DNA of 64,000 nt, from the NCBI RefSeq assembly GCF_008831285.2, contig NC_045138.2:21452001-21516000 (forward strand), in the 5' to 3' direction. The translations under genes and the position numbers were made by a program. The notes under the pieces are model-generated. The model did no database searches. It saw nothing but the letters and a program-made list of their open reading frames with translations, and had not been told where the DNA came from. Of this stretch, positions 9,500 to 62,971 are shown piece after piece (the stretch's first letter is position 1; every line of letters starts with the position of its first letter). Source of the stretch: Nymphaea colorata (taxonomy: Eukaryota).

Positions 9500-12400
9500 T
9501 CAAGCATCCCTCCCACCTTTCCGGCTCACAGCTTCACATAGCCGACAAGGCAACGTGTCAAGGCTCATAGCACGTGCCTTGTGATAATTGCCCATCACGC
9601 CGCACCTTCTCCATGCATGATACTCAGCATATGCAACTGGATCGTTAGCAAGGTCCTTGACATAAGAAGCCAGTTCCTCGAGGGATGCAAATTTTGTACC
9701 ATCGATAATAGAATTTGGAGGAACAAAGTCCCATACGTTTGGTGCTCCAAAATAAATTGGAACTGATCCCGCATCCAATGCATAAAAGAGCTTCTCGGTG
9801 ACATAGCTCTCTGTCATGGTATTCTCAATAGCGAGCACAAACTTATAGTGTGACATGGCACAGTGAAGATGATCCCACCACTTTGGTACTGCGCTTTCAC
9901 GATTCGCACACTCTGGATAATAGGTCAGTGCCATGTTTGTGCCACCAACATTATTCAAGCATTTGCCAAATGAATGATGCGGCAGCATCGAGAGGAGCTT
10001 CTTAGCCAGACGATTTCTTTGCCAAACACATCTCGAAGATGACCAGTAAACAAGTGTATCCTACAAAATGAATGAAAAAAATTCAAATGGAAGACAAGTT
10101 TATATGATCAAGCCAACAAAAATACACAGTTCCTAGATCCAATAATGCTTAACCATGCTAATGAATAGCTTCTTCGAACAGAAAGACAACCCACATGCCT
10201 TTGCTCCTTCAATTAACAGAGGCACTAGGCATAGTAGTACTATTTCAATTCAAACAGACACTATCCACTGAAAACACATACGGACATTTTAATTCCTATG
10301 GAAGAAATTGTATTCACTCCAACAACTTTAGTGACAGATAAAGAGAAAAAGTCGATATGTCCTGATTCAAAATAAAATTCACGTAGATGTGAAACCATAC
10401 AGCTACCATATACTGACTATCATAGACATCTATATGTGCATAATGTAAATGTGCATCACTTTGCCCATCGCTCACCAAATTGCATTTCCTGATTCAAAAT
10501 ATGGTTGTGATTTCTGGCCACCGCTAATGAAGTCATTGTAGCACATTTATAAAATCAAATCCCAGAAAACTTCAATATTTCAAAAATACAACCATAACCT
10601 CATAGTATCTTAACTACTTTTGAAGGTAATTCCGGTGTTTTTGGAAAAAATGAACATGATGAACTTACATTTGGAGGGCAAAATGTAAGTGAACTGGTTA
10701 ACCATATAAAAGTGCACATCGAGACAGGAATATGATCAGTTTTAAGCTGTGTGCAGAATTAGCAGGCTTGAGCTGTACATTTCAATCTTCAAAAATTTTT
10801 ACTCAATCTTATTTCTTTCATTTAACTTTAATGACAACATTTCAGTTTCACAATGTTTTTGAGCTTTATACACTTACATTTTGCTTCTTAGATGATATTT
10901 GATAACTCCGACCATTATGAAACAGTGCCCCTGCGTAAGTTGACTGAACATCATCTTTGGCATGATAAGTAATAAAAATATCCTCATATCCTGAAGATCG
11001 TCGACCAGGCTCAAGATCCATGTATACGCGAAGCGGATCTCCCTTGGTTCTCTGGCAAATAACAGATTATCTTGATAAGCATTTGAAATGATGACCAGAA
11101 GAATTTGAATACATAAAGCACCAAGTCAGTCAACTATAAGAGTTTGAAGATTATATCCAACCCTACAAAGGCAAATATCCAGAAACACTTGCCATGATCA
11201 AGCGGACCATGCAATTGGTACAAGAGAAACATCTTACCTTTTTGGCAACAGTAAAAACAGGAATAAATAATTTACAGTTGTCTTCCAGTCAAAAACGGTC
11301 TTTCTAAAAAACACCAAAATTGAAAACAGAGGTGGAGAAAAGGACAGAGAAATTTACCAAAACTGAAAATATATGAAAAGTGGCTTTCAAAAAGAACATC
11401 CATAATAAATACATCTATATATGTATAAGAGAGTTCTATGCTATTGTGTGCTGGATGGCTAAAAATTAAAAATCTGTCATTAAAAATAACCATTAGTGAC
11501 AGTTTATGATACAATGATGGTTCATGGTATTTTTAGCAACAACTCATGGTGCTTTTAGTAAACAGATTTTTAATTTTTAGCCATCTGACAACATCTGTGT
11601 GTCGAATGGCTAAAAGTTAAAGAACCGTCACTAAAAAATAGCCATCAAATAACCATTAGCGACAACTAATGACGCAATGATGGTTTCTGTTATTTTAGCA
11701 ATGATTCATGGTGCTTTTCGCAAACAGATTGTTAACTAGATTGTTAACTTTTAGCTATCTGGCAAAATCTAGCACACGGCAGCAAAGAATTCTCCTATAT
11801 ATATATCTATATATATATATGCTCACCATTAACATGATTATGACCATAAAGTGCTTTATGATACACAACATTCACAGAAATTGAAATCATGTTTTATTCA
11901 AACAAATGGTTACACACACATCTCTTTGATTGGAATTGCACATACATGACATCGAGTTTAAGCAACCACTTCTTGGTTCATTCAGTATATGAATTTCAAT
12001 GTCATCCTATTAGCAGCCACCAGCTAACTTGGAACCCTTACAAAGCACCCCAATACCACACACACACACTCAGCCCTAATCCTAGATTAGGATTCTTCCC
12101 TCCTAGAGGTAAGGACTTAAATAGACGGATGATCCCTCCCTCAGTGCCTTTGACCTATTTACAGTTTTATTGGGTCTGCCCCAACTAGGAACCAATCTGA
12201 ATCCATAACCAGTTACTAACAATACTCCGCCCTTTGCAAAACACCTTGCCCTCAAGTTGTGAGCATGAAAATGATTGTCGCAGAAAAGATTCCTCCCCTT
12301 GCTTTCAGCCTGTCAAGGTGGACAGCCAAGTGTAAATTCTGTCTCAACAACGGCCTTCATAATGTAGGTGCACACTTGAAAATTAGCTGCTCCCTCTCAG

Positions 12401-14427
12401 AAGTTTCTTCAAATGTAGTGGAGACCGCTCCCCGATAAATGCAAGCCAACTGCTTGGCCATTGGAATTTCTATATCCCAGCTTCCTTATTCCTTCATATT
12501 TGAATAGCTGTGGTGGATGCCTGCACTTCAGTTTGAAGCGAAACAAGAGCGGGGAGTACTCTGATGTGGGTGGTCTAGGTGCTTCTGTTATATCCAGTCC
12601 GATGGAATGATTTGAGCAAGTCTTGCACCCTCATTCTTAACAACGGAGAGCTGCCATTATCCGACCTTGTAACTGCTACCATAACCTCTTTCAAGTTAAA
12701 ATTTCCAGTGTTCAACTCTAGATAGCACAGTAGCACTCATGTATGCTTTTGAAATCCATGTCATCCAAGATGTTAGCCAACTGTTGTTGACCGAGCACAC
12801 TCGTTCTGAGAAGTTGATTCTGCTTTTTGTTTAAAATTTAATCCTTCTTCAGTTGATGGGTAAACATTATCCCATTACATGGGTTGTGTATAATAGTGAT
12901 CCCGACTCCTTGAACACGGATGAAGTTTTCCATTACAATCTTCTCACTGGTCACATCTTGTGCTATAAGACTAACACCAACAACATCTTCCTTTAGATCC
13001 TTGAGCAAACATGCATTCACCACTAAGACGACAGGCCCATTTCCCTCCATCCCATATGTTTTGAACGTAATTTCAACATTTTTCTCTTCTTTACCTGCGA
13101 GTGCCAGCAGAAGTGTTCTTTTCCCAACTTCAATTGAATCCCCCTCAACAGGGTCAATCAAGGGCAACCCAATGACTTCCTCCCCAGCCAAATCCTGTCA
13201 ATTCGGCAGCCTTCATGTTCCTTCTGTTGAGCCTTCCAAAAGAATCAACAGCCAAAATGGATACAACCACTGTTTTTATGAGATGAACCATTTCATTGGC
13301 AACTATCTGTAGTTCATCTCTTCCTCGAACCATGGTGACATCTACCTGGACGACAAGGGCCTTGGGGCCGCTAGACTGAGTGCCATCTTGCAATGATCCC
13401 TTCAGTGTAAGCTGCAAGGAGTGAATGGCGTCGAGCTCAATATCTTCGCAGGGAAGGCTCCTTCGCTCAACTCCCTTAAGAAAAGCCTTATGGATGACAT
13501 CTGTCCCATAATGGGATCTTCGTGATATTTCCATTTCTTTCTGAATGTCTTCAGTTCCATCCTGCTGCCATGGGGGCTTCCAAGGATGCCTCACTCACCC
13601 TGCGTGCCTACAAAAAACAGAGGCCAAGGCAATGCAGTGCTCTGTTGGTGTTTGCTCCTCCTTGCAATTGGTGAATTCCACTAGTTCTCCCTTCCAGCAT
13701 GAGGGCTCAAACAAAACCTTAGGAGAGTATTCCATGCCTCGGTTTTTTTATGATGGTGTCAATATTGGGTGGTTGAACCAACTCCCAAAGCCTTAGGTGC
13801 CTCAAACAGAGATCGGAATGGCGACATCTCTGATTCCTCCACCACATCTTCCACATGGTTTGCCGTTGACTCCCTCTCCCTTTTCGAGAAATCTAGTTTA
13901 ATCGAGAGTGAGTTCACAACTTCACATTCATTTTTGCAATCTGGTCACGACGCTGCAGAGCGACTGCTGCACTCAGGTGCGGGTGCAAGTGCGGCTCGGA
14001 TTCGCACCCAAAACAAGACAACAAGAGTCGGGTGCGGCTGACCGCACCTGATCATTTTCGACCATTTTAGACACGCACCTGACTCGCGTTTGACTCAAGT
14101 CGGGTGCGGCCAACCACATCAAACCTATTTTCGTTTTTTTTTTTTTTTATTTTAAAAAATTTTAACGTTAAAAAGAGGGTTTACTATTTTTTCATTTATG
14201 TGTTCTGTCCTGGTTTTGTTGTTCTTTGTTTACTTGTTTAAAGTTTGTACTTTGTAAGCATGTTAATGCTTAATATGTTGCATTCATATACACAATACAT
14301 TATAACTTATAAATATGTAATATATAATATTCATATATAATGTATCCATAAAGTGTGTAATGTAGAGTGTCTAGATTATAGTGTATACTCTAAATTTCTT
14401 AATTCTTATATGTGTGTAATATGTATG

Positions 14428-14465
<38 letters not shown>

Positions 14466-17400
14466 TATTATAATAAATTAATAATAACAAATAAATATTC
14501 TCGCCGCACCATCGCACCTAAATCCTTGGAGATGTGCTGCTCCGGCACCCGCACCCCTTCTTCATGTTGGGTTTGAAGCAACAAGTCGTCTTCAATAAAT
14601 ATTGTCGCCCCCTTGAGGCCCCACTTCCGGAAGAACTCATCATACCCATTTCCATCACCCCTATTGTTCTATGTTGGCATCAGATATAACTCGACCGTTG
14701 TCTCTACATTCTTTTTGTTCCCATGAATGACTGCATCACTTCTGAACTAGCTTTTCGATCCAATCCCTGAAGCCTCTTCTTCTTCACCCATATTGTCTGG
14801 AAGTGCTAGGGTTTTTCTCTGTTCTGCCTTGGCTACAGACTGGATTTGGGAACAGTGGCAACCGACACATGTTCTGGGCCCAGTGTATTCCCATGGAGAA
14901 CTCTTGAAGCATAGGTTCCTTGTTCATCCTTGGTTGCATCTTGCTTAGAGGTGTCGTAGACTTGGCAAAGCAACTGCGACAACAACTCCTGCTTTTCGGC
15001 AGCCATTCCAAGGTCGACGTGTCCCTGGTTTGCCTACACTATCAGGTTTGAACTGTGAGCAATGTCTTCCTCTATTCCTTCTCCCTTTTGGGCATGTTCT
15101 TCCCCCCAATTGTGCTCTCGTTCTTGTAAATGCCTCAGAGTTCGATCGATCATTTGCTCTCTGGTCTTCGGCGTGGGCTTGAGCTTTGAAGGTGCCCACG
15201 TAGGTCCTGGAAATTGGAGTCGGCTCCCTTCTGCTTATGGTTTCATGCCTAACCACCAGTAGCCATTATCCAATCTCTCAATTTCTTCTTCCATCTCCAC
15301 CATATAGGGCTGTTCCTTGGGCCTCGCAAGGTTGTAGATGTAGTCATCATATTCTTCGAGCAGTTTTGAGCCCCAAGAGTCAGGGCTGGGGACGCCACAT
15401 ACCTGGGACCCAAGCTTTACAAGAGTGTAGTCCCTTGATATCTCATCTTGTGGTTAAAGAGGCCCATGGATGATCATCTATGGTGACAACTTGCTGAATT
15501 CCAGCTCTGATCCCATTGTTAGCAGCCACCTGCTAACTTGGAACCCTTACAAAGCAACCCCAATCCCACATGCACACACTCAGCCCTAATCCCAAATTAG
15601 GGTTCTACATTCCCAAAGATAGGACTTCAATTAACGGATGATCAATCCTTCAGCGCCTTCGACCTATTTATAGCCTTCCTGGGTCTGCCCCAACTAGGAA
15701 CCAATCTGAATCCATAACCAGTTAACACATCCTCATCTCTCATTATAGCTCTCAAGAAAAATTACATTGCTATGGGTCCTAAAAATTCCAATTTTGACTG
15801 GTTTGCCCAGCATGGAGCAGCTGCCGATGCTCAGAGCAGGTCTGCCTAGTTTGAATCAGGTCAAAATCGAGTTTCATCATGCAATTCAAACAACAAGGTC
15901 TGGCTACTACACTTATGTTCACAATAATCCAAAATTTGACGATATTTGTGGCTACCTAGTGCTACAGGCCTAGAGTATCCAACCCCACTGTTACCGAAAA
16001 CAAATGATCCCTCCAAGTCAGATCAGTTAGGTTGTCATGCGTCAGTTCGTTAATCTATGCCAAGTGGTCAAGAAGAAAGAAATAAGAAGAAAAATGGGAG
16101 CCATTGAGAACCCCAGGAAAAGGTTGTTGCAGTTCATGTAAAGGAGAAATGAAAAGCCCCAATTAAATGAATTTGATACATCACAAAATGTGTGGGAAGC
16201 ATGAACATTCTTAATAGTGATTACTGGTCAGAAACTCAAAACACAGCTTTTGACTCAAACAAGGTGATGAGGATCTGCTAGTCATCGAGCACACTGAACA
16301 GATAAAATCCTAGTAAAACAAAAACATTCACATGGAAGTGAAATACAGGTTGAGAACAAATAAGCCAAACACAAATAATAAACATAACACACCATTTATG
16401 TGGTTCGGCATTGCCTTACACCTTACAAGAGGAGGAGAATTAAATGTATATTACCAAAAAAGGAGAACCAAGTACCATAACAACTTATTGCAACAATAAA
16501 ACCCGCATTAGCATGATGATCAATAAAGCCTTACAGAAAAAGAGGAGAACACCGACCAACTGATAGTTCAGAAGGAATCTTCTGTTTCCGAGGCCATTTC
16601 TCAATCATCTTCCTACCTCAAGGATGAGCATCCATTACTGGAAGTAAGTTGGATGATATGAAGCACTGGGACAGATGTATGGAGGCTATCCAGACTCAAC
16701 TGGTAAAATTTGAGTGTCGATATGGAAAGTTGAACCACCTGATCAACTTGCTTCATTGTAAAATATAAACCTTGTAAGACATGTTCTGCAGTCACATTTT
16801 TACGGCCTCCAAGTCTGCCTAACCTCCATCCTGGCAAACCCCGAACCCGACTCTTAAACAAGGGATAAATGAATAGCTAAAGAAGCACAAACAGAGAGAA
16901 GAATCTCTCTCTCTCTCACTTCCCCTCCCCTTCCCCCCACCCCCCCCACCTCCTACAATATTAGATAAAAAAAACTCTAGGAGAGATCAGCAAAATTATT
17001 TGTTCCTTACTCAAGAAAGTTTCCATCTAAGGGATCTATCCATTTAAGAGTCCAGGGATGAATTCTCTTTATCTCCCATCTCCCCTTTAAGGGATTTTAT
17101 TTACTGTTTCACATCTCACTGTCATGGTTCATGAGAACAGGAACACCTCCTATAGAAGCATTACCTCTTTCATATGGGAAAAAGCCCATTATGACCTTGG
17201 ATCGGAGTGGGCAAAGGAATCACCTAGATTGTCCTGACCCTCTCAACAGAAAGGCTGAGACTTCTGTTCAAGCTTCACATATTTTACCTAAAATCACGCA
17301 CACACAATGCTAAGCCATCTCTAGGTAAGAATACACGTTATGCACATATACTGATTAGATGTAAATCATATGATACACCAAGTTCCACTAGCTATTGGCT

Positions 17401-24800: not shown

Positions 24801-27800
24801 TTAGCACGTCCAGGATGTGGATCTCTTGATGAGAGGCTTCATTTGCTTGTCCTCTTCAAGAGAGATCATCCCCAAGTGAGAGGGGTCCTCCAACATCATC
24901 TTTGAAACCAAATATCCTGCAATTGACCATGTCTGAAACTTTCGAGCTTGCTTTCCTATGTATCTTCCAAGTTTCCCGTCATAATATTCCGGCCAGCTAT
25001 CAACTAGAAGCCTGCTTTCTGCCAACTCGATGGCCCGTCGAGCAATCTGCGGCCTCCCAGTCTTTATGCAGGCAGCAGTGAGCAACCAGAGCAGGACTGC
25101 GAGGAATAATTCATAAAATTGGGAAAATCTGTTAGTCATGTTGCATTTAAGGTGATCAAATAAAAAAAACAATTGAAATAAAAGGCATTATGATTTTGAC
25201 ACTAGCAAAATGAGCCGCAGTCAATGTGGGAGGTGTTTCCAGATAAATTATCTAATCCTCATGCCTGGCCAATAATGAACATGCCTTGGAAAGGTACATG
25301 CAATAAAGTATTCAGCAAATGCAACAAACGCTAGCAGTCAGAAAACGGCCATATAGGGCTGGAAACAATATTCAATAGCAAATACAAAAGTGGAACACAT
25401 GAACCAAAAGTTTTATATATTTCTCAGTTTACTCATTTTCCAATTTCATTCTCGAAGATATATGAGCATCTCTATTTTTCCTTTTACAAGGTATACCATT
25501 TTCTCTCTTTCTCCCTCTCTCTCTCTCTTAAGGGATTCAAACACATGTAAGCTTGTTCCTGCATCCAAAGGAGTGTTCAAGAATCTTGAAGAATGAGCAA
25601 GGAATACACCATTGCTGTTATCTCCCTCTCTCTGAAACCATTTGTATTGACAAGCTGTCATCTTCGTATCACAGCATTTCTTGGTCTAATCAGTGCATCA
25701 TTCATTCCATCACTAGTGTTGAATCTATTATTTCACCAAGTTAGAGGATTCAAAGTCAAGTTTGCTCCTGCATCTGGAGGAGTGGTCTATTCCTGAAGAA
25801 TATGCAAAGAAAGGCATTGATGTGAATCCTCCACAAACTAGTAAAGACAGGGTTCTTGAGGGAGGAGATAGCAAACTCTGTTGATGGTTCAAGCCTGCTT
25901 TTCTTTGTTGATCACTTGCCTTCTACACAACGAAATAACAAGAAGAGCTGAAAACGGAGATGGTTTCTCCGATAGAAAAAAAAGGCCAAATTGAGCATTA
26001 GTTGCTCCTGGGGATCCAAGCTTTTTGTGTTTAAAGGAAAACCCTTCTGAGCTATTATGGAATGCAAACAAAATGATGGACACAACCTAAGGAAAGGGAT
26101 AACAAGAAGAACTGATGTCAAATACAAGTAGAACCAATGTCAAATAGGTCCAGTAGATTGGTTCTGGGCTGACCCAAACCTAATCTAAGCTGTACTTGGG
26201 TGTACCAAATATCCATACCCATGTCTATTCTTGTCAACATGGGTATCCAGCCCAAAATCACGCACCCATGGTTGGCAAGTCAGGACAATCGCTAATAGTG
26301 TTGGAGAGCACGAAAAATTTAAAACTTTCCAACTTAATGATTGCAATGCTCTTAGGGTAAACTAAAGCCATAATTTGTAAATGTTATCACTTCCAGAATG
26401 TATTCCGAAGAGCAATGGAGAGGTTCCTTCCATATCAAACTCTTGCATTGACAGGCACATTTTTGAGTTGGATAAACCATTATACCACATCTTGTTTTGA
26501 ATAAATAGTCAACTTGGGGTCCTGGTAAACTGTAAATCAAAGTAAAAAAGCAGTTTGGATGATGCTTAGGTAAAAAGGAAGCCACTTGAAACATGAACAA
26601 AATCATCAAAGTTGAACAAAATGATGTACAGCAGAAGCTAAAATTGAATAAGAAAATCTAGCACATCACAACTGACAATTTGCTTGCTAGCTACTAACTG
26701 AAAAACAAAAAAAAAAATTGAGATGACTCTCAGCAATGAACAGAAAGTAAGGGAGAAATAAAAAATGGAAAATAAGTCTTAATTCTCCTAACCTGGCCAA
26801 GATCCTCCATTGTGATAGCTCCACCGGGTATTTTTGGGATCACAACCTGTCACTATTCTCCATTCATGGCTTTCTATTGCTGGATAAGCAATCTTCAGAG
26901 GCATCTCCCCAACTAGCTCTTCCCAACGTGCTTCTATAAGATCCATGATAGCCATAGATTGCTCCGGAGTCGCAAGAGATGATAAGATTGCTACGCAATT
27001 TCCCAGTGCAAACCATCGGAAGTCCATTCTAGCAGGACTAACGTTTCCAACAAAGTACCCTCCACGAGTTGGCATAAAATCAAATACCCAGTCTGGGATT
27101 GAATCAGGAATGACATTGAATTTGTTAACTGCTGTATGAGAATATTCCTCGGTCTTGTAGCGATAAATGTCATTTAGCTGCCGGAAATCAAGCCAGAAGT
27201 AACTTCGCATATGATAACTCAAAGCATGCAACCTTCTCACAATTCTTTCAATAAATTCTTTACCCTCTGCATCATGTTTAAGCATGGAAAGAGCACACCT
27301 CAATGCCATGAAGAAGAGTGCTTGAATTTCAATAGGGTAACCATATATACCCTGCACAATGCATCACAAAATTAAATAAGACTGTATTAGGAAGCGTAGC
27401 ATGGAACTGCATATTTTGGAAATAATTAAGTAAATAAACTGAGAAAATATGCCACAGCAATGTGCAGAACTGAAAGAAAGAACAAAGAAAATATCACCCA
27501 TCTCATTGGGAAATAAAGCATTGTAGTCTCCTGAACCCAAGAGCACCATGAAATTTTGAATGACCTCAAGCTATGAATACCTAAAATATATTATTTGTTC
27601 ATGCAAGCAATAACACTTCAGAAAGATGGTCAAAGAGAGAAAAAGGATATACAAAGGCAGACCAAGCTGAATTTGTCAAAATGGTAGCTTTTACATACAA
27701 AAATACCTAATAGCAAGTTTATTCAGCACACTTTTTTTTTTCAGCAAAATCAGATACAAGACTTCAATGCCACAAATGAAAGGGACAAAGGACAATAAAT

Positions 27801-42606: not shown

Positions 42607-45600
42607 TCAACAAGATGGGCCTCCGGATGTTCCGGACGATTCAGCTACATTGTCTGATCTTGATGCTGTTGCCAAATTCATTTCAACCAATTTCCCCTTA
42701 TCTGCTCCCCCATTCACAATTTTGTTAAGTCTCCTCAACCATATTTCATAATCTACAGGGTATGGAGTGCCACAGAGGCTGTCAACATAGTCAGCAAAGG
42801 CTTTCAGCAATGCTGAAACCTCACCCAGCTGTTGCTGTATCGATCTCTTTGCCCAGCATTTCTCCCTCCACTGCAATGCTGATTCTATGGAATCCTGTTG
42901 TTGCATCAGACCACCACACACAAAATAGAGGAGGTAGACAAGGCTTTCAGCATCTGATGCAGGACACAGTTTTCCTTGCTGCAGAGCATGAGTGGAAGAA
43001 AACTGCAAGTTCACAGCTGGGCTATCCCTGTCATCCAGGACTGCATGCCCCCAAGATACAGGTACATAACGACATTCACTAGAATCATGAACTCGTAAAA
43101 TATTTTCTGGACAGATGTCACCATGCTGGATGTTAGCTAATGCAGCACTTCTTAGTGCAGAGAGGCAATCTCTACAGCAGCGCAGAGCTTCCTCAGAGGC
43201 AAATGGGCCATCACGTGCAACAATAGATGAAAGCGGCTCACCCACAGGAAATGTAACGAGAACTGGAGTTCCACACCAGGGATGATCACACCGACTACTG
43301 GGATCCTGCTTCTGGCATGGACCAGGATGTACAATGCGACCAGAAGCAACAATCTCTGGCAAGAATTTACTTGATACGCCCTGCTGCTTCATGATATTCA
43401 AGACCTTAGTCTGACGCTGAACTTGATACCACAGGCTCATGTCCTCCCATGAAGGCTTCAGCCGTGATGGATGTGAACCTACATAGACAGTTAACAGTTC
43501 ACCTGGATGTTCTAGACAAATGGCACTATAAGACAAACAATTCCCACTGATCAGAATCTCCTGTATCTGGAAACTTTTCTGGCCCTGAAGATCTTCCAAT
43601 ACCATAATATCCCCAGGGTTGAGCTTTAATCTTGCTATTTTCTTCTCAAAGCTGTGCATCTCTTCACATTCAAGTTCCACAATTTCTCCTGACTGGGCAT
43701 GTTGTCGTTCATAAGTCGATGTGTCAACAATCTCAGGCACTTGGTACTCAAACCTACGTTTCTCGAGGCGAAGGTTATGATCAGCAACTAAGGTGGCAAC
43801 AGATTTCTTTGGTGGTCCTTTGAACTGGACAATTGAATAAAATGTTGCCAGAATCAACTGCAAGGTCCCAAGATCCCCCCAATTAGGATTCCCGAACTTA
43901 TTCCAAATGAGATCAACAGGAGACACATTGACTTCAGCATGGTTTTTAATCCATTCTGCAATGGATTTGTAGGGGTTGCTTGTATTAATTTCTAGGTTAC
44001 TAAGTTCACCCCCAACTTTTATCACCCCTCCAAATTTTGGATCCAGTACCAGAAAATAAACAGTGTTACTGCTCGTAGTGTCAAATTTGCTCAAACTCCT
44101 TGAAAGGATCACATGAAATCCATAAAATAAGGCTTCAGCTATAGTAGAGGCTGAAAACCCCAGCTCCACTCCCTGTGCAACATCAGATTTGAACAGTGCA
44201 AGTTCCACCACCTGATCCCAGTGGGCCTCTGAACTTTTACCAGTTTTAGCTATTAAAGCTGCTCCAGATAATGAACCAATTCTTCCTCTTGAAGCTGCCT
44301 TCTCAACAGTATAGAGTTTTGATCCAGGGTATCGTGGACAACATACAAAAAATGGCAATGGGCCACTTTTACTCCAAAAGGTCCGCCACAGACCATCAGC
44401 AATTGCATGAAGGAAATCTTCTAAAGCAAGAAGTTTGTCTTCCTTCAGTTCATCAGATGCATAAGCTGTACAAGGCATTCTGAATAGTTGTTGAAACACA
44501 ACTCCCTCCAATGCATAATCAAGCTTTTGCAGCTCATCAACCAGAAAAGGGGCTTTGAACAACAAATCATTATCAATAGGATTGGTGCCGGTTCTCTCAT
44601 GAATCCAGTCCTCAATATTGGGTACAAATAATTCAACGTTAATGACTTTCTTTGCATATTCTTTAAGAGCCTTGAACACTCTTCTGGATGAAGGAACAAA
44701 CTTACTAGTGCTTGAGTCCACTGACTTGCTTGGTGAAACAACTGCACCATAAAAAAATCATATTTAAAACAATCATATTTATTTTCAGAATTACCAAGAT
44801 CTAACCATTGCATGATATGTGCATGTTGATGGACAATGAAAGTGATGCTCTCATATTTACAATGATTAAAACAAAGGGGAGCTACATGGGATCATTACGA
44901 CTATTTGCATTCTGCACAATAAACATTGGTAGATGGACAAATGTTGGCTACCAAAGAGACCTGAATTCTATAATTGAACTCTTACTTCCACGTGTCCTTC
45001 CAGAAAATTCTTCATGCCCAAATAATCTATCTTGATATGCATCTTTGTGTGTGTTAAACGATGCCACTAGCATGTGCTAATAGATGAATGGAAGGAATAC
45101 TAACCGGACTCGGACCTTCTAAAACTCCCATCCAAATATTGTGCAGGGGATGAGTCTAAATTTCTTGATCGGAACCCTACAAAAATGCAGATAATCAGGT
45201 AATTTTCACTATACAATATAAACTTCAAGCTAAGAAGTAAGAACCTGCTATCAGATAAAATGAACCTACTTTTGGGAAGCTTAAACTCCAATAAAAAACA
45301 GCCAACATTAGACATCTTGAATTTTAGCAGATGAACATTATTAATATAGACATGTAAATATTCAGAAGGAGAAGAATAATTAATACCAATAGTATAGTTG
45401 TTATAAAGAAATCTTACAGTTTGATGCATACTTGTTGAGTTGTTTAACTAGCCAAGTAGGATACAGTTCATTTAATATCCATTTGTTTCCCTCAACATAT
45501 TAATTCTTGGTTACTAGCGTTCATTCAGAATGTGGCCTGAACAAAAAATAAGCTGCTTCAGTGCTTCTGTACAAGGAAAGATAATTCATTAGAGCTTCTG

Positions 45601-48034
45601 TAAGTGGCATTTGCTTTCCTCCATCCGGAAGACCACAAGCTCCACCAGCTGCCTTTCTCTGACGCAGGTCTCCGGTTTAGCACATGCTGCTCCATGAGAT
45701 TCCGTTCTCTCCCAAGAATAAAAAGAGCAAGAAGACAATCTCATTAGGACAGCCAGCCCAATCCGCATCCATGTATCGGTCTCAGAGTGAACTAGGGTTT
45801 TTTGGGTTCCGCCGAGCTTGCGAGACTCGACGATGTTGAACTGGCAGCCAGGTTCTCAGACGCTTTGGCGTCTATCAAATCGAAGAAGTTCTGCACGGAG
45901 ATGACCGGCATCAACATCAGTGGCCCTCTGACCTCCGCAATACACCGAGCAAGGCTTACAAAATGAGAATTGGCTCGTCTGGATTGAATGGAACCCTCAT
46001 TTTCAGAATCGCAGTCCATGAGTCTACCTCTCGCTTCCATGAGACTTTGGAGATCATATTACCAGCCAAGATGAAAGTACCCGGCTCCTATGAGTTCCCA
46101 CCCTTTTAGGAACTCCGTGGGCTCGCTGCTAACAGAGACTAGGAAAAACTATGCTGCCTCTAACCTGCTAACAGCACCATACACACGCGGCTGATGTACT
46201 GGCCCTCGCATCGATCTGACCTCCGCTGCCTGCCCGCGCGCGGATCAACTCAAAAGAAATGCAGCTAGCTCGCCAACCAACTGTTAATGTTTGAGCTTGT
46301 TGGCTTGCTTCATTTTTCTTTATACACTGCCTGAATTTACTGACTTGGTAGCCAGCCTCAAACGTATCCGGATGGATAGAGACGGATCCCTTTACATACA
46401 TAGCCCCCACCCCCCAGATACATACTTTTCCTCTTTTATCCCGCCCTTCCCGGAGATTTCTTTCAAAATCATTCATCATGGAACTGATGATCCGAAGGGG
46501 CGCTTGTTCTGGATCCTAAGATCCCTCTTTTTGAAGTCAAGTCATTCATTATCAGACAGTTGGGTGACTTTTCCATAATGAGTCTTGACCTTTCAATCAA
46601 GTCCTGGCCTGTTTTGGTATGGTAAGTACTCATTGTTGATGGTCAGTCTGAATGGCATATAATGACAATGAGTTCTGACTTTTCCTCAAGAATTCTCATT
46701 AGTCCTGACCTTTCAAGAGAGTCCTGACCTTTATTATAGCAACTACTATAACTTATATAGATTATGATGAAAATACTTTTCTCCATATCTCTAAATCTTT
46801 TCCCCTCTCAATAGTCAATACAGAAGCGAAAGGTTCCATTGCAGACCAATTAATCAAGATCTTTACCAACCAGATGTAAAAGAGCTAAAATATGAATGCT
46901 AACTAGAAACCAGACAATTGAAGGGAACAATCTTCTTTAAAATAATGAATACATAATCAAGCCACAAGAATATGCTTAAAGAGTTAGGCCTCTTTAACAA
47001 GGAATGAGGCTCATACCCCTTCCCTAAGACGCTACATGAAGTAGGGCTCTTTATAAGAGACCACACCCTTTTAGAGACAAAAAATGATAAATGGTATCTG
47101 TAATCTAAGTCACACGAACGCTGCAAAATGACTGCCGCACCCGTGTCAACACGACTCGGGTGTGGGAGCGGAGACGGGTGCGGCCCGGATTCACACCCAG
47201 CACAAGTGTTTGGTGCGGCTGACCGCAGCTGATCATTTTCGTCCATTTTGGACACGCACCCGACTCGCATTTGACTCGAGTCGGGTGCGGTCAAACCATG
47301 TCAAGCCTGATGTTGTCCTTTTTTGATATTTTTTATTTTAAAAATTTTTAACATTAAAAGAGAATTTAGGGCACGATCATATACGCTCTTCCTCTCCTCC
47401 CATGCGCCCCTCCTTTGTGTGGGTTTTGCTGGTTTCATTGAAGCATCCGGTGGAATGGAAGGTCATTTCCGACAACTGAGGGGGTCGAACAACGGCCGAC
47501 AGCGACGTGCGATGGGTCTTTTGAGTGGAACAGAAGACTTCTCAGTTCTCTGCCCTATTTCAGTAGTATTGTCGTATGCATCTTTTTCAACCGTATTTCT
47601 GGCAAACAGCTGTTTTTCCATCAGTCTCTGGCTTGATTCTGCCATCTGCACTTCCTCATTGCACTCTTGAGTTTGTATTTCATTTTGCTATGTCACCGAT
47701 TCAACTAACGACTCATAGCACAAGTGCCTCCATTTTTTTGTTTTATACCTACATCAGTAAATGTTCATATTTGACTGTCAGTTTTGTGTTTTGCTGCAAC
47801 CACTGCTATCTCTTGTTTAGCATTTTTTTTTTCATTTCTGTGTTCTGTCCTGTTTTTGTTGTTTTTTGTTTATGTGTGAACTTTGTAAACATGTTAATGC
47901 TTAATATGTTACATTCATATACACAATACATTATAACTTATAAGTATGTAATATATAATATTCACATATTGTGTACCCATAGTGTAGCGTAGAGTGTATA
48001 GACAATAGTGTATACTCTTAATTTCTTAATTCTT

Positions 48035-48077
<43 letters not shown>

Positions 48078-48578
48078 CTTATACTAATTAATAATAACAA
48101 TACATACTCTCGCCGCACCACTGCACCTAAATTTTTTGGGATGTGCTGCTCCGGCACCCGCACCTATGTGACATAGACTGTAATCAATAGTAACGACAAA
48201 GGACACAATGTGCTGCCCTAGTTGCCAATGTACGTTCATTTTTCAACATATTTACTTTTAAATCCCCTAAAAATACATAAAAAATGCTTCATCTATAATG
48301 CTAAAAAGTTACACACAAAAAAGTCAAACTTATCCATTTTCATGTTCAAAGTTGTATCAAGATAATTAAAAAAAAAAGAGCCTCCTGCATCCTCCATCAA
48401 AATGGAAAAGCAAAAGGACAAAGGTAGACTGCTTTTCATCAAAATTATTTGTTGTTTTCTCTTTAACAGCTTCTGTTCTTCTTGTATGCATTGATGCATT
48501 TCTTTGTTTGATATAACATTGCCAACACATGTTTGCCCTCTCACCCAAAAGCTTATTTAGCTAGTGCTTTTGTGGAAT

Positions 48579-58553: not shown

Positions 58554-61500
58554 CTATTTCAAGGACGACTCCCTCGTATATACAGCTGCATAGTCCTTTA
58601 TTCTCTTTTTGAGATGCTGCAAGAAAAAGCAAAAGTATAGTAAATGATAAATACAAAGAAAACAACAAAAGTGAACAATATACTGAAAGGTGAAATAAAC
58701 AAGAGGCTGTGAAGATTCTTACCTTCAATTCTTCATGAAGTACAATGAATATCTTCTTCATCTGCCTATGTCTCTGAATCCACGAAAGCACCAGTCTCAA
58801 AACATAATCAAGAACATGAACAAAAAGGATGACAATAGTAATGAACCTTTTTCCAATTTATATGGATTTTCCCAACAACATCTATAACATGACAGTACAT
58901 TGGCTCATTAGTATGAATGTAAAAAAAAGCATGGGCTTAGCTACAATATTAACTTTTATGTTTCACAGCAGAACATTTGTCTTCTAGTTTTTCATCAAAT
59001 TTCTTCTTTGAAAAACAAAAGACATATAAAACGTGTATGCACTTATCCACCACATAAAGTACATACAAGTAGGACAACAAGAAACATCTGTATCACGAAA
59101 AATAGAAGGTCCTTTGCATCATGTAAGGAGGTTAAAGAAACCTTCCGGTAGCCAGCAACTATTATGGGTTGAGGGCCAGTAAACTGAAAAGGTTCAACTC
59201 TACATTTCAATCTTTTTCTGCCAGAACTTTAAATGAGGACTGCACTCAGCGGAGTGTTTATGTATCCCATGAATGCCTTTCGACTCTAATTTTTGTTTAT
59301 CAAAATATACTCATAGACAATATTAAACGTTTCAGGAGCTATAATGCTCAATAAACAAGTGCAACTTCCACAAATGAAGATCAGTTAACAGACTTAAGTG
59401 AACCAAGAGAACTTATCATGATTCAAGCATTCCCGAACATTGTGAGGACATCAGAAGTTGGAGGCCCACTTTTGGCCAAACAAAGATTAAAAAGATATCA
59501 ACTCATTTAAACTTATCTTAAAACAGATATGTTAGAAACATCTGGAAGCCTTCAAATCTTTTGAATGGATTGGAAGTCATTAACATTCCTAAAACATTCA
59601 TTTACTATTCAGTTCATTCTCTAGAAGAATTTCCATACAGTATCACGCAATCCCTTTTGAAGATCAACTGATGATCGTAATTCTAACTAAGAACATTCTT
59701 CTTAGAAATCTGATTTACTGCATCTATTGGACACCTAAAGAACCTCCAAAGGCTTCGATGAGCTGGAAGCACTTGTTGGTGGTGGGTTTCATGACCTAAT
59801 GGATATCCAATCGGGTGGGTCATCTCATATTCCTTCCAGAAAATCTATTAAGCCAATTGCCTCCATTTCCAACATTGATTGATTGACCACTTAATTTGCA
59901 AAGATAAATCATTTTAGTCAACAAAGTTTACAGTAATAAGTTGATGGCATGACGAACCTCTTCAGAAGAAGTTGACAGCCTAACAATTATTTGGAGACTA
60001 TATTTCATATTAGTGAACATGGAAAAAAAAAGGACTTCACTTTTAATAAAACTTGCTTGACATTATTTGCCATTCCATCAAATAATACTTAGTAAACACA
60101 ATAAGCAGAGGAACATGAACATGAAAAAAAAAAAAAGAAACATTAGCACTTTAGTTGGTGAGGATTTCAATAAATGCACAAACAAAGAAACTCAACCCTG
60201 CAGTTTTTCAAGAACGGTAAAGGCCCTACAATCTCGAGAAGCAAAGGAAAAAAATAGACGAGTTAGTTAGTCCTGACAGGATAATGAGTTCTTGCACCAA
60301 AGGTACTCCACAGGGATTCCATAGTACTAGAGAATAAAAGAAAAGAAATCATACCTCCGCGCACTGTTGGTATGCTCTACGTAACTGACCAAGGGCATTG
60401 TCATATGTATCTTTATCCCTATCTTTCGCAAGTTCGAGATCACAGCCGAGTTTCTGAAAGTGTGTCCTGAACACAACAGTTTTACATTACATATTGGATA
60501 AGACAGAACTGGAGACCCTTGCACATGAAATGGAGATTTTTGCAGTACCTGTCATCTTCCAAAGCCTTGTTCAAAGAGCAGTAACAACTATACTTCTCAC
60601 AGTACTCCTTCGTATACTCTTTATATCTGTTTATGAAACAAAAAAAGTAATTATATGAGCAGTTTATAATGAAGAAGAACAGCATTTGCCATCCTGAACC
60701 AAGAAATCTAGTGCAACAATTGATACATCCCATGAGCAGTTTATAATGAAGCAAAGCAGCATTTCCCAACCTGAACCAAAAAAATTTAGTGCAATAATTG
60801 AAACATCACCATAACAATTTTGCATGCACACACTAATTTATTACAATGATCAAAGTAAATTATGCACATACATTGAGAAAAACACACTGGAAATTGAAAA
60901 AGGAATATGCATTTAATGTGTATGTCCAAAGGATGACAGTGCTGAAGACATGGGAATACCAATAAATGGCTCAAAAAGTAGCAACTTACTGAGAGTCGGT
61001 TTGAATTGCTTCCCTCAATTCTGGTTTATCTTTATCATATATTGCATACTGTTCATCCGTGGGAACATATGTTCTCTTTTTGCCACATATCCTATTCTCT
61101 TTTTGGGAAATATCCAGTTTGCTGGAGACTGAGTCAGAAAGTAGGTTTGATTTCTTTGGTTTAATTCCTACAGACGTTCTGGGAACTTTAGTGTCTTGTG
61201 GATGCGATACATTCGCAGAATTCCTCTTCTCAGAATTTCCACGATCCCCAGGTAATAAAACTTTGTGACCGGCTTTTGCATCACTTTTTCCAGTCTTTGT
61301 ATAGGATGATCTTCCTAACTGAGATGGGCTGTCAACATCAACCAGATCTGTCATTGTTAGATGAAGAGCTCCAGAAACATTTTGTTGCTTTGTCTGATTA
61401 AGAGTGTTCATTTCAGGCAACTTTGTTCCTGACTGGCTAACTACAAAACCCTGACCACCAGGATCTGAAAATTGTGGGGAAGGTTTTGTAGAGTCAACAG

Positions 61501-62971
61501 CACCTTTTTTCCTTTTTTTCTGATAACCAGGATCCACATACGTATTCTCTGATGAATCAATTTTTTCCGTTCTGCCAAAAGAACTTTTCCGCTCCAACTG
61601 TTTCTTGTGATCCTGAGAATCCTCATTGAAAATAGGCTCTCGAAATTCACCAATTTCTAGATCAGAATACTCTCTTCGTAGTTTACCTTTGTTCTCGGTA
61701 ATAACTGCATTCTTAACATCATTTGTATTTGATTGATGTGGGGTTGCTCTAAATTTTTCCTCTTTTGTAGGCTTTCTACTTTGTTCACTATGTTTCTTCT
61801 GCTGCAAGTTGCTGTATTTTGATTTAGTTACCAATTCAACTGCTTTCTCAGAATTGTTATCCACATTCCCAGAAGGATATGCTGTGAAGTCCTCCATTAA
61901 TCTCTCAGGAGAACTAAAGCGTGGACCTAATGCATAACTAGCATCTCTACCTTTCCAATTTGAAGATGGGAGAGTTCTGCCCTCGGCTTTCAGACCTTCT
62001 TCCCTCTTAGCGTTCAATGCATAGTCCTGTGAGTGGACAACATCAGCACGTGTCCTTGAGCTAGAAACAGGAACTACTTCATCCATCTCAGGCTTTTCGG
62101 GGGTTGTACCAAAGGTCCCCCTGGTCTCTTTCCCATCCTTAGTACCACGTTCAGCAATCTTCAAAGTGATATTTGCATTCACACTCTCACCACATTCTTT
62201 TTTATTCAATTTACTCTCATGGTTGTTTGAGGAAATTGGCACCAGTTCTTCTAGATGATCATCCTTGGTAACGTTTAAAACTGGTACTTCCTTTGACACA
62301 AGTTCTACTTTGTCTTCTGAGCTTCCCTTCATTCTCTCTGAAGCAGGAGAAAAACTTGCAGGTTGGATTATATTAACCACACCATCATGAGTTCCAACCT
62401 CCTCCAAGTTTAGAGGAGATGTGGGAAGTTGACTGCTGAAGCCATGCTGCTCATCTTGTTCATAATCATCACTCTTTCTGCAAGCAAAAGGTGAGGATGA
62501 TAACCGTGAATCAGGGCCCTGAAATCTGTGCAGACCTTCGTCATTTCCATCATCATCATCATCCATGATGTCGACATGAACATCAGATCCTTCTTGACTG
62601 CTAGATGAGCCATCACTCTCACTGTCACTGCTACTTGCACTTACAGGACTTCTGCTTTTGCTCCTGCTAATACTTCCACTGTCACTACTATCACTTTCAC
62701 TATCACTTTCACTTCCACTCTCACTAGAACTGCTGCAGACTTTTTCTTCTTCAGTAATAATATTTTGGTTATCATCAAAAACATCAATTAATTCTTGGTG
62801 TGCTTCTGTGTCTTTAAAGTCAATTGGTTCTGTTGACTCCGGCTCTAAACGAGGCAGCTGCTGAAATTCTTCAGGTGTGGTCTTCTCTATGAAATTTGAA
62901 CCACCAGTGACTGCAGTCACTGCACCACTTGGACAAATGGGAGACCTGAAAGGGGATGACAGATTAGGCAA
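58554..62971 (-). CDS. Occludin/ELL-domain protein ('dentin sialophosphoprotein-related' type), 3' part; 5' exons not resolved or outside the window
   Basis: Exons 62971-60990, 60626-60549, 60466-60355, 58773-58723, 58616-58554, GT-AG and in frame. A long S/D-rich low-complexity exon with LRREYSDLEIGEFREP is followed by YDKDKPELREAI..SQ|YKEY.KEY.EKY..Y.SLNK.LE..R|THFQKLG.DLE...Y.QC.E|RHRQMKKIFIVLHEELK|HLKKRIKDYA...*, the Occludin_ELL signature. Confidence 0.85.

What the first reader, a model, noticed from the sequence alone, without database searches (positions are those of the whole stretch)
12008..15727. LTR retroelement that has transduced a spliced PHYTOCHROME C mRNA, parked in an intron of FUT13
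Seen: a structurally complete LTR element (two ~210-bp LTRs, CATCC TSD, Met-PBS, PPT) that lacks RT and integrase but carries ~830 bp of phytochrome coding sequence (13500-12665) on the element's sense strand. Established: angiosperm PHY genes have intron 1 at LALxG^xEE and intron 2 at SIEEC/G^Y. Here both positions are read straight through (GCAG|GTAAAGAAGAG at 13095/13094; ECY..LELN near 12735), so no introns are present. Inference: the element captured PHYC as RNA by template switching (Bs1-like host-gene transduction), then transposed and may form a family. Such copies can generate siRNAs against the real light-receptor gene or chimeric transcripts.
Basis: partly seen in the sequence, partly recalled or inferred. 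Interest (0 to 1): 0.88.

Follow-up and report, generated by a model that had tools for sequence, protein, structure and literature searches.

The report
Retrotransposon carrying spliced phytochrome C fragment
An old, broken jumping gene in an intron of a water-lily fucosyltransferase gene carries an intron-free, decayed piece of the light-sensor gene PHYC, likely picked up from its messenger RNA and likely copied to at least one other place: real, but an example of a known process.

Summary
Observation confirmed, with corrections. The element (12008-15727, minus strand) has two LTRs 13% apart, an exact CATCC target duplication, PBS and PPT. It lies in the 7.2-kb first intron of an alpha-1,4-fucosyltransferase gene of a Nymphaea species. 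The cargo is PHYC, 819 nt in two pieces (residues 552-754 and 902-972), with about 147 codons missing, frameshifts and a stop. A DNA contig that behaves as native PHYC has 236 extra letters at the intron-1 site, which this copy lacks. The native intron 2 was not seen, and this copy has 8 extra letters there. The same DNA run holds a second intronless copy, 7% different, and a N. thermarum gene model shows the same insertion. No gag or pol domain was found; a DNA-transposon-like insert is nested inside. 475 RNA reads splice the host intron normally and no PHYC-FUT13 joint was listed. Small RNAs were not tested. This is Bs1-type LTR-mediated retroposition, a known process: a new member, decayed, low copy.

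The parts
12003..12007 (.). Target-site duplication CATCC (left)
   Evidence: chance about 0.0015
12008..12221 (-). 3' LTR, 214 nt, TG...TA (terminal CA changed)
   Evidence: 11 of 12 listed family letters in this LTR equal the 5' LTR letter
12222..12240 (-). Polypurine tract
   Evidence: sequence
12241..12670 (-). 3' internal region, multi-copy in DNA runs; its last codons resemble a Ty3/gypsy integrase end (recalled motif only)
   Evidence: no Pfam or PDB hit; 3-8 other contigs at listed places in run X10
12671..12891 (-). PHYC piece 2: residues 902-972 (end of exon 2 into exon 3), one stop, no intron 2, 8 extra letters at the exon junction near 12723
   Evidence: the 8 letters are absent from 2 contigs of X10 and 3 of X11
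12880..12891 (-). Internal deletion joint: 12 letters (I-H-N-P) that fit both V-H-N-P (751-754) and L-R-N-P (902-905)
12880..13489 (-). PHYC piece 1: residues 552-754 (end of exon 1 into exon 2; PAS domain), frameshift near 13192, 3 extra letters at 13367
13094..13095 (-). Exon 1/exon 2 junction read through without intron
   Evidence: X10 record 4 has 328 letters where the window has 92
13490..13939 (-). Internal element sequence upstream of the cargo, possibly decayed gag (not shown)
   Evidence: no hit; 13571-13490 also present in the N. thermarum model
13940..14555 (.). Nested AT-rich DNA-transposon-like (MITE-like) insert, one end apparently lost
   Evidence: 80-82% match to 47178-48164; 26-40 other contigs at listed places
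14556..15503 (-). 5' internal region, no recognisable domain
15504..15515 (-). Primer-binding site TGGGATCAGAGC (tRNA-Met-like, canonical form recalled)
15517..15727 (-). 5' LTR, 211 nt, TG...CA
15728..15732 (.). Target-site duplication CATCC (right)
11052..18241 (-). Host intron 1 (about 7.19 kb) of the alpha-1,4-fucosyltransferase gene (FUT13 name recalled); exons at about 18242-18780, 10878-11051 and 9500-10060
   Evidence: 475 reads join 11053 to the exon ending near 18244; Glyco_transf_10; P0001

Best explanation
This is a decayed, non-autonomous LTR retrotransposon whose core is replaced by an intron-free piece of the host PHYC coding sequence, likely captured when reverse transcriptase switched from the element's RNA to a co-packaged spliced PHYC mRNA and back. 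Shown: LTR anatomy, PHYC identity, absence of the insertion that the native gene has at intron 1, decay of the cargo, normal splicing of the host intron. Inferred: (1) a switch onto the mRNA near codon 552 and back near codon 972; (2) loss of codons 755-901 across a 12-letter look-alike, during reverse transcription or later; (3) mobilisation in trans by an autonomous relative, using the intact PBS, PPT and LTRs, giving at least two loci; (4) insertion into FUT13 intron 1 before the split from N. thermarum, then neutral decay and a nested insertion. Today it is most likely a passenger, transcribed at low level with the host intron and spliced out.
For: LTRs, exact TSD, PBS, PPT. Best match Victoria PHYC-type P0002, 65-74% over four stretches; sister to it at 100/99 support; the named angiosperm hits among P0002's best 120 are phytochrome C, none A. 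X10 record 4 (4157 nt) starts matching at 13490, where protein similarity starts, has 236 extra letters between 13098 and 13191, and ends 30 letters into the equivalent of residue 902, as expected of the intact gene (the last point is arithmetic on Victoria spacing). Record 6 spans the junction without intron at 30 differences in 419 letters, while the host flank is one unbroken contig with 0 differences, so it is unlikely to be an allele. Both cargo ends lie inside coding sequence, with no poly(A) and no repeat of 6 or more letters around them. The N. thermarum model joins the same remnant, including sequence upstream of the 5' junction, to the last two FUT13 exons. The anatomy matches the features listed in PMC5131818 (passages).
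Against: Microhomology at the two element-PHYC junctions could not be tested, because the parent element is unknown. No gag or pol remnant was detected. The native intron 2 was not seen, and this copy has 8 extra letters at that site. No listed contig ties the second copy to LTRs. The second copy (7%) is closer than the two LTRs are to each other (13%); p = 0.03, or 0.11 after removing the shared ends, so it may be a later duplicate and not a sister insertion. The 236 letters are placed only within 13099-13190 plus a 4-letter overlap, and their GT..AG ends were not read.
Confidence: 0.82

Rival explanations
1. A PHYC cDNA or older processed pseudogene was patched into an already integrated LTR element at DNA level (break repair or LINE-driven insertion), and the second copy is a later DNA duplication.
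For: Junction microhomology untested; the second copy is closer to this copy than LTR dating predicts; an internal deletion at a short look-alike also fits end-joining repair.
Against: No poly(A), no own target duplication, both ends inside coding sequence; sense orientation; the cargo sits where the pol core would be; the second copy does not share the 3' flank, which has single-contig depth.
Confidence: 0.12
2. The remnant has been recruited as an exon of a PAS-fucosyltransferase fusion gene, as the N. thermarum model P0001 draws it.
For: P0001 exists as a database gene model; cargo and host gene share a strand; most RNA reads on the cargo carry this copy's own letters (39 of 43 at 13367, 48 of 48 at 12723).
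Against: 475 reads join FUT13 exon 1 to exon 2 and no joint from the element was listed (6% of one run read, 5% threshold). P0001 residues 18-75 use a non-phytochrome frame that has stops in this window. The orthologous copies differ at 22 of 183 codons, against 2 of 244 in the FUT exons.
Confidence: 0.03
3. Assembly artefact: an mRNA-derived sequence was merged into the assembly.
For: None found.
Against: DNA contigs of run X10 match the copy with 0 differences (records 2, 5, 7); 12 of 24 listed runs hold half or more of the sampled words; the remnant is also in a N. thermarum model; the cargo is 13-14% from native PHYC.
Confidence: 0.01

Closest known systems
LTR-mediated retrocopies by template switching (Tan et al. 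2016, PMC5131818; 12 passages read)
   Same: Partial, intronless, coding-internal host piece between the halves of an LTR element; genic insertion site; signs of further copies; more than two switches possible.
   Different: Plant, old and decayed; junction microsimilarity could not be measured; only 2-3 copies indicated.
Maize Bs1 (as described in PMC13317346 section 4, and PMC5131818)
   Same: Non-autonomous plant LTR element carrying exonic host sequence.
   Different: Bs1 holds pieces of three genes and is reported as a transcribed and translated chimeric gene; here one identified donor, no open frame, no spliced chimera seen.
Gene-capturing Sirevirus elements of maize and siRNA cross-talk (Muyle et al., bioRxiv 10.1101/777037; abstract and section 5 read)
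   Same: LTR elements with exon fragments (204 of 6,200, 3%); cross-talk with the donor gene is the known possible consequence.
   Different: Different superfamily and host; here donor and copy are only 86.6% identical and no small-RNA data were examined.
Neochrome and the gypsy insertion in Adiantum PHY4A (PMC4525182; passages)
   Same: Phytochrome sequence in a chimera, or next to a Ty3/gypsy element.
   Different: Neochrome is a functional fusion of the photosensory module; the Adiantum case is an element inside a PHY intron. Here a non-sensory PAS/HKRD fragment lies inside the element and is broken.

Membership tests
LTR retrotransposon | Two direct LTRs with TG...CA ends | tested here: met
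   211 and 214 nt, 87% identical; 3' LTR ends TA
LTR retrotransposon | 4-6-nt target-site duplication | tested here: met
   CATCC, 5 of 5
LTR retrotransposon | PBS after 5' LTR, PPT before 3' LTR | tested here: met
   tRNA-Met assignment by recalled canonical sequence, 11 of 12
Autonomous LTR retrotransposon | gag, protease, RT, RNase H, integrase | tested here: not met
   no family hit (one of three frames) gave only a low-complexity hit; nothing under E 0.4
Ty3/gypsy (chromovirus type) | RT-RH-INT order or placement by RT tree | tested here: inconclusive
   domains absent; only a recalled integrase-end motif before the PPT, short LTRs and a Met-like PBS
LTR-mediated retrocopy (Bs1 type) | Host piece lacks introns that the parent gene has | tested here: met
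   intron-1 site: 236 extra letters in X10 record 4; intron 2 of the parent not seen directly
LTR-mediated retrocopy (Bs1 type) | No poly(A) tail or own TSD (unlike LINE-made copies) | tested here: met
   no repeat of 6-20 letters around the cargo ends, no A-run
LTR-mediated retrocopy (Bs1 type) | Microsimilarity at element-mRNA switch points | not testable with these tools
   no genome held, parent element unknown; a 12-letter look-alike is present at the internal joint
LTR-mediated retrocopy (Bs1 type) | Secondary retroposition of the chimera | tested here: inconclusive
   second intronless contig without the host flank, not bridged to LTRs or to a TSD
Functional chimeric retrogene | Open frame and spliced or translated product | tested here: not met
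   frameshifts and stop; no joint from the element in run X21
PHYC clade | Groups with PHYC | tested here: met
   sister to Victoria P0002 (29 of 120 reference rows used, no PHYA row); P0002's named angiosperm neighbours are PHYC; 67% to P0002 against weaker PHYA/B scores

The most novel reading that the evidence does not exclude
The PHYC-bearing element is a small, once-remobilised family kept across Nymphaea species, and the FUT13 copy still acts: part of the host transcripts end in its 3' LTR, giving a FUT13-PHYC chimeric RNA whose small RNAs reach the native PHYC gene. RNA depth falls about threefold at the 3' LTR (35-55 inside against 9-14 beyond) and the reads are mostly this copy's own.
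Probability: 0.08. Interest if true: 0.6.

Novelty: new member of a known kind. Interest (0 to 1): 0.3.

Why it matters
It is a well-anchored example of LTR-mediated mRNA capture in an early-diverging flowering plant, with the donor's intron seen in DNA data, and with a master light receptor as donor. My searches found no report of a phytochrome captured this way (no mention of phytochrome or PHYC in the main text of two water-lily genome papers; supplements and donor-gene lists not read, and they could hold such cases). It also explains a probably wrong database entry: the N. thermarum fucosyltransferase model with a PAS domain. The process itself is documented and common, and the cargo is broken, so biological weight is low unless small-RNA cross-talk with PHYC is shown.

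Tried and rejected
The first homologue search with longer proteins returned only P0001 (1 of 783 candidates). gag/pol detection failed: Pfam, representatives search (only one of three minus frames was sent, and not the frame with the longest near-open stretch), PDB. The Atlas could not read the 42-residue ORF at 12360-12485 and gave nothing usable for P0122. No RNA holder was listed by the run index: no evidence either way. Run X22 laid 40 reads, all on a repeat near 11450-11510 and none on FUT13 exons or the element, so it is uninformative. Contig depth was not used as copy number, except to note that three contigs (67.5 + 52.3 + 58.3) account for the depth at 13216-13374. The RNA step at the 3' LTR was not taken as proof of termination, because DNA depth is also 2-3 times lower in the AT-rich flank and no pile-up of ends was listed. 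Earlier scan notes held nothing for this sequence or genome. Searches for exact PHY intron positions gave only 'four exons and three introns' for PHYA (PMC3913082); the codon positions are recalled.
Full report
Verdict.

Host and setting. The best protein match to the cargo is a Nymphaea thermarum model named alpha-(1-4)-fucosyltransferase (P0001). Its last two exons match the window at 57 of 58 and 185 of 186 residues, so the window is from a closely related Nymphaea. In RNA run X21, 475 reads leave exon 2 at 11053 into sequence found at 18244, which defines an intron of about 7.19 kb. The element lies in it, on the same strand as the gene.

Element anatomy. The LTRs are 15517-15727 and 12008-12221, with 183 of 210 letters identical, 18 transitions and 9 transversions, K2P 0.143. 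CATCC flanks both ends (chance about 0.0015). PBS and PPT are in place. At 11 of the 12 listed LTR places, the letter of other family contigs equals the 5' LTR letter, so about half of the 27 differences are private to the 3' LTR, as expected of decay since insertion. The age is 5.5 million years at 1.3e-8 per site per year (a recalled grass rate) and 10-18 at slower rates. No gag or pol domain was found, so a Ty3/gypsy label rests only on recalled motifs. An AT-rich repeat at about 13940-14555 has a relative at 47104-48177 and many relatives in DNA runs; it is a later insert.

The cargo. tblastn with Victoria cruziana P0002 gives four stretches: residues 552-649 (13489-13193, 73%), 650-754 (13191-12880, 67%), 902-955 (12891-12730, 65%) and 954-972 (12727-12671, 74%); it scores best of 120 proteins tried. 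The named angiosperm hits among P0002's best 120 are phytochrome C (1678 hits in all). In a tree of 31 rows (29 references chosen from those hits, no PHYA row) the copy and its N. thermarum counterpart are sister to P0002 at 100/99. About 147 codons of exon 2 are missing, and the joint is 12 letters that fit both V-H-N-P and L-R-N-P. The chromophore-binding part is absent, and frameshifts and a stop break the rest.

Intron test. Piece 1 is 610 nt against 609 expected and piece 2 is 209 against 201, so neither holds an intron. In DNA run X10, record 4 (4157 nt) matches 13191-13490 with 39 differences and 12906-13098 with 27, and has 328 letters between them where the window has 92: 236 extra letters, ending 4 letters from the predicted junction. 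The record has 2839 other letters upstream of the match and ends 30 letters into the equivalent of residue 902, which fits the intact gene; I read it as native PHYC (inference). The parent's intron 2 was not seen. The 8 extra letters at that site look like an imperfect duplication, not GT..AG, and are absent from 2 contigs of X10 and 3 of X11, which therefore cross the junction without an intron. That the gene family has four exons is stated for PHYA in PMC3913082 (passage); the codon positions are recalled.

Copies. X10 record 5 is this copy (0 differences in 427). Record 6 covers the same 12999-13425 without intron, with 30 differences in 419 letters. The host flank is one unbroken 2196-letter match with no second contig, so record 6 is unlikely to be an allele, though the tool warns that a filter drops some records. 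No listed contig links it to LTRs. It is closer (7%) than the LTRs are to each other (13%), p = 0.03 or 0.11 depending on the ends counted; it may be a younger daughter. The N. thermarum copy differs at 22 of 183 codons, about 5% at DNA level if neutral, so the insertion is likely older than that species split. Twelve of 24 listed runs, under 4 organism labels, hold half or more of the element's words; only two of these were laid.

Expression. In X21 (6% of the run read, apparently unstranded) FUT13 exons reach depth 520-790, the element 28-55 and the intron beyond the 3' LTR 9-22. Most reads on the cargo carry this copy's letters (39 of 43 at 13367). Eighteen reads cross the outer edge of the 5' LTR and 21 its inner edge, so RNA enters from the host intron. 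The only RNA joint listed is the normal exon 2-exon 3 splice; none leaves the element (5% threshold). The P0001 fusion is therefore most likely a prediction error. The step at the 3' LTR could mean termination there, but DNA depth is also lower in that flank and no pile-up of ends was listed. Small RNAs were not examined. At 86.6% identity, 4.9% of 21-mers and 3.2% of 24-mers would match native PHYC, so cross-talk is possible but narrow.

Mechanism. Most likely (0.82): spliced PHYC mRNA was co-packaged with element RNA; reverse transcriptase switched onto it near codon 552 and back near codon 972; codons 755-901 were lost at a short look-alike then or later; the chimera kept LTRs, PBS and PPT and was moved in trans to at least two places; the FUT13 copy has decayed since. 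The main rival (0.12) is DNA-level patching of a cDNA or pseudogene into a resident element. The absence of poly(A) and own TSD speaks against a LINE-made insert, but the junction test that would separate the two could not be run.

Comparison with what is known. PMC5131818 (12 passages) describes this anatomy and its secondary retroposition, and cites plant cases. PMC13317346 (section 4) describes Bs1 and abnormal template switching. In maize 204 of 6,200 Sirevirus elements hold exon fragments (10.1101/777037, abstract and section 5). PMC13477047 (12 passages) reports on average 32,940 capturing elements per angiosperm genome, all classes together. Searches listed no phytochrome capture; supplements were not read. 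Unchecked scan notes show the same kind of finding in several animal genomes. It is a member of the LTR-mediated retrocopies on the features testable here, and it is not shown to be a functional chimera like Bs1. Interest 0.3.

Noticed in passing
P0001 (N. thermarum protein model) against window 13571-12895, 11051-10878, 10060-9503: The database model replaces FUT13 exon 1 with the element's PHYC remnant, giving a PAS-fucosyltransferase that RNA from the related species does not support.
   Followed up: yes
window 12352 (table 7): 17 RNA reads match the element up to 12352 and continue into other sequence: a family member with a different 3' end, or a second captured host gene at about 12352-12660.
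   Followed up: partly
window 47104-48177: DNA-transposon-like element with short terminal inverted repeats and a candidate 8-letter target duplication CTGTAATC; same family as the insert nested at 13940-14555.
   Followed up: partly
window 11445-11735: A second, unrelated MITE-like repeat with inverted arms in the same FUT13 intron; multi-copy in DNA runs, and run X22 has 40 reads on it, some with A-rich loose ends.
   Followed up: no
window 22455-22796 and 24801-25187: The last exon of the alkaline/neutral invertase gene appears twice, nearly identical in translation: a tandem 3'-exon duplication.
   Followed up: no
window 10060-10877: FUT13 intron 2 has RNA depth about 85-120, far above intron 1 (9-22 outside the element): likely partial intron retention.
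   Followed up: no
window 12846-13665 (table 5): One low-depth contig of run X11 joins 13665 to 12846, which could be a family variant lacking most of the cargo; side only 30 letters.
   Followed up: no
window 42607-44757 and 60986-62971: Two long open frames (716 and 661 codons); the first has only a weak kinase-like Pfam hit (E 0.01), the second none.
   Followed up: no
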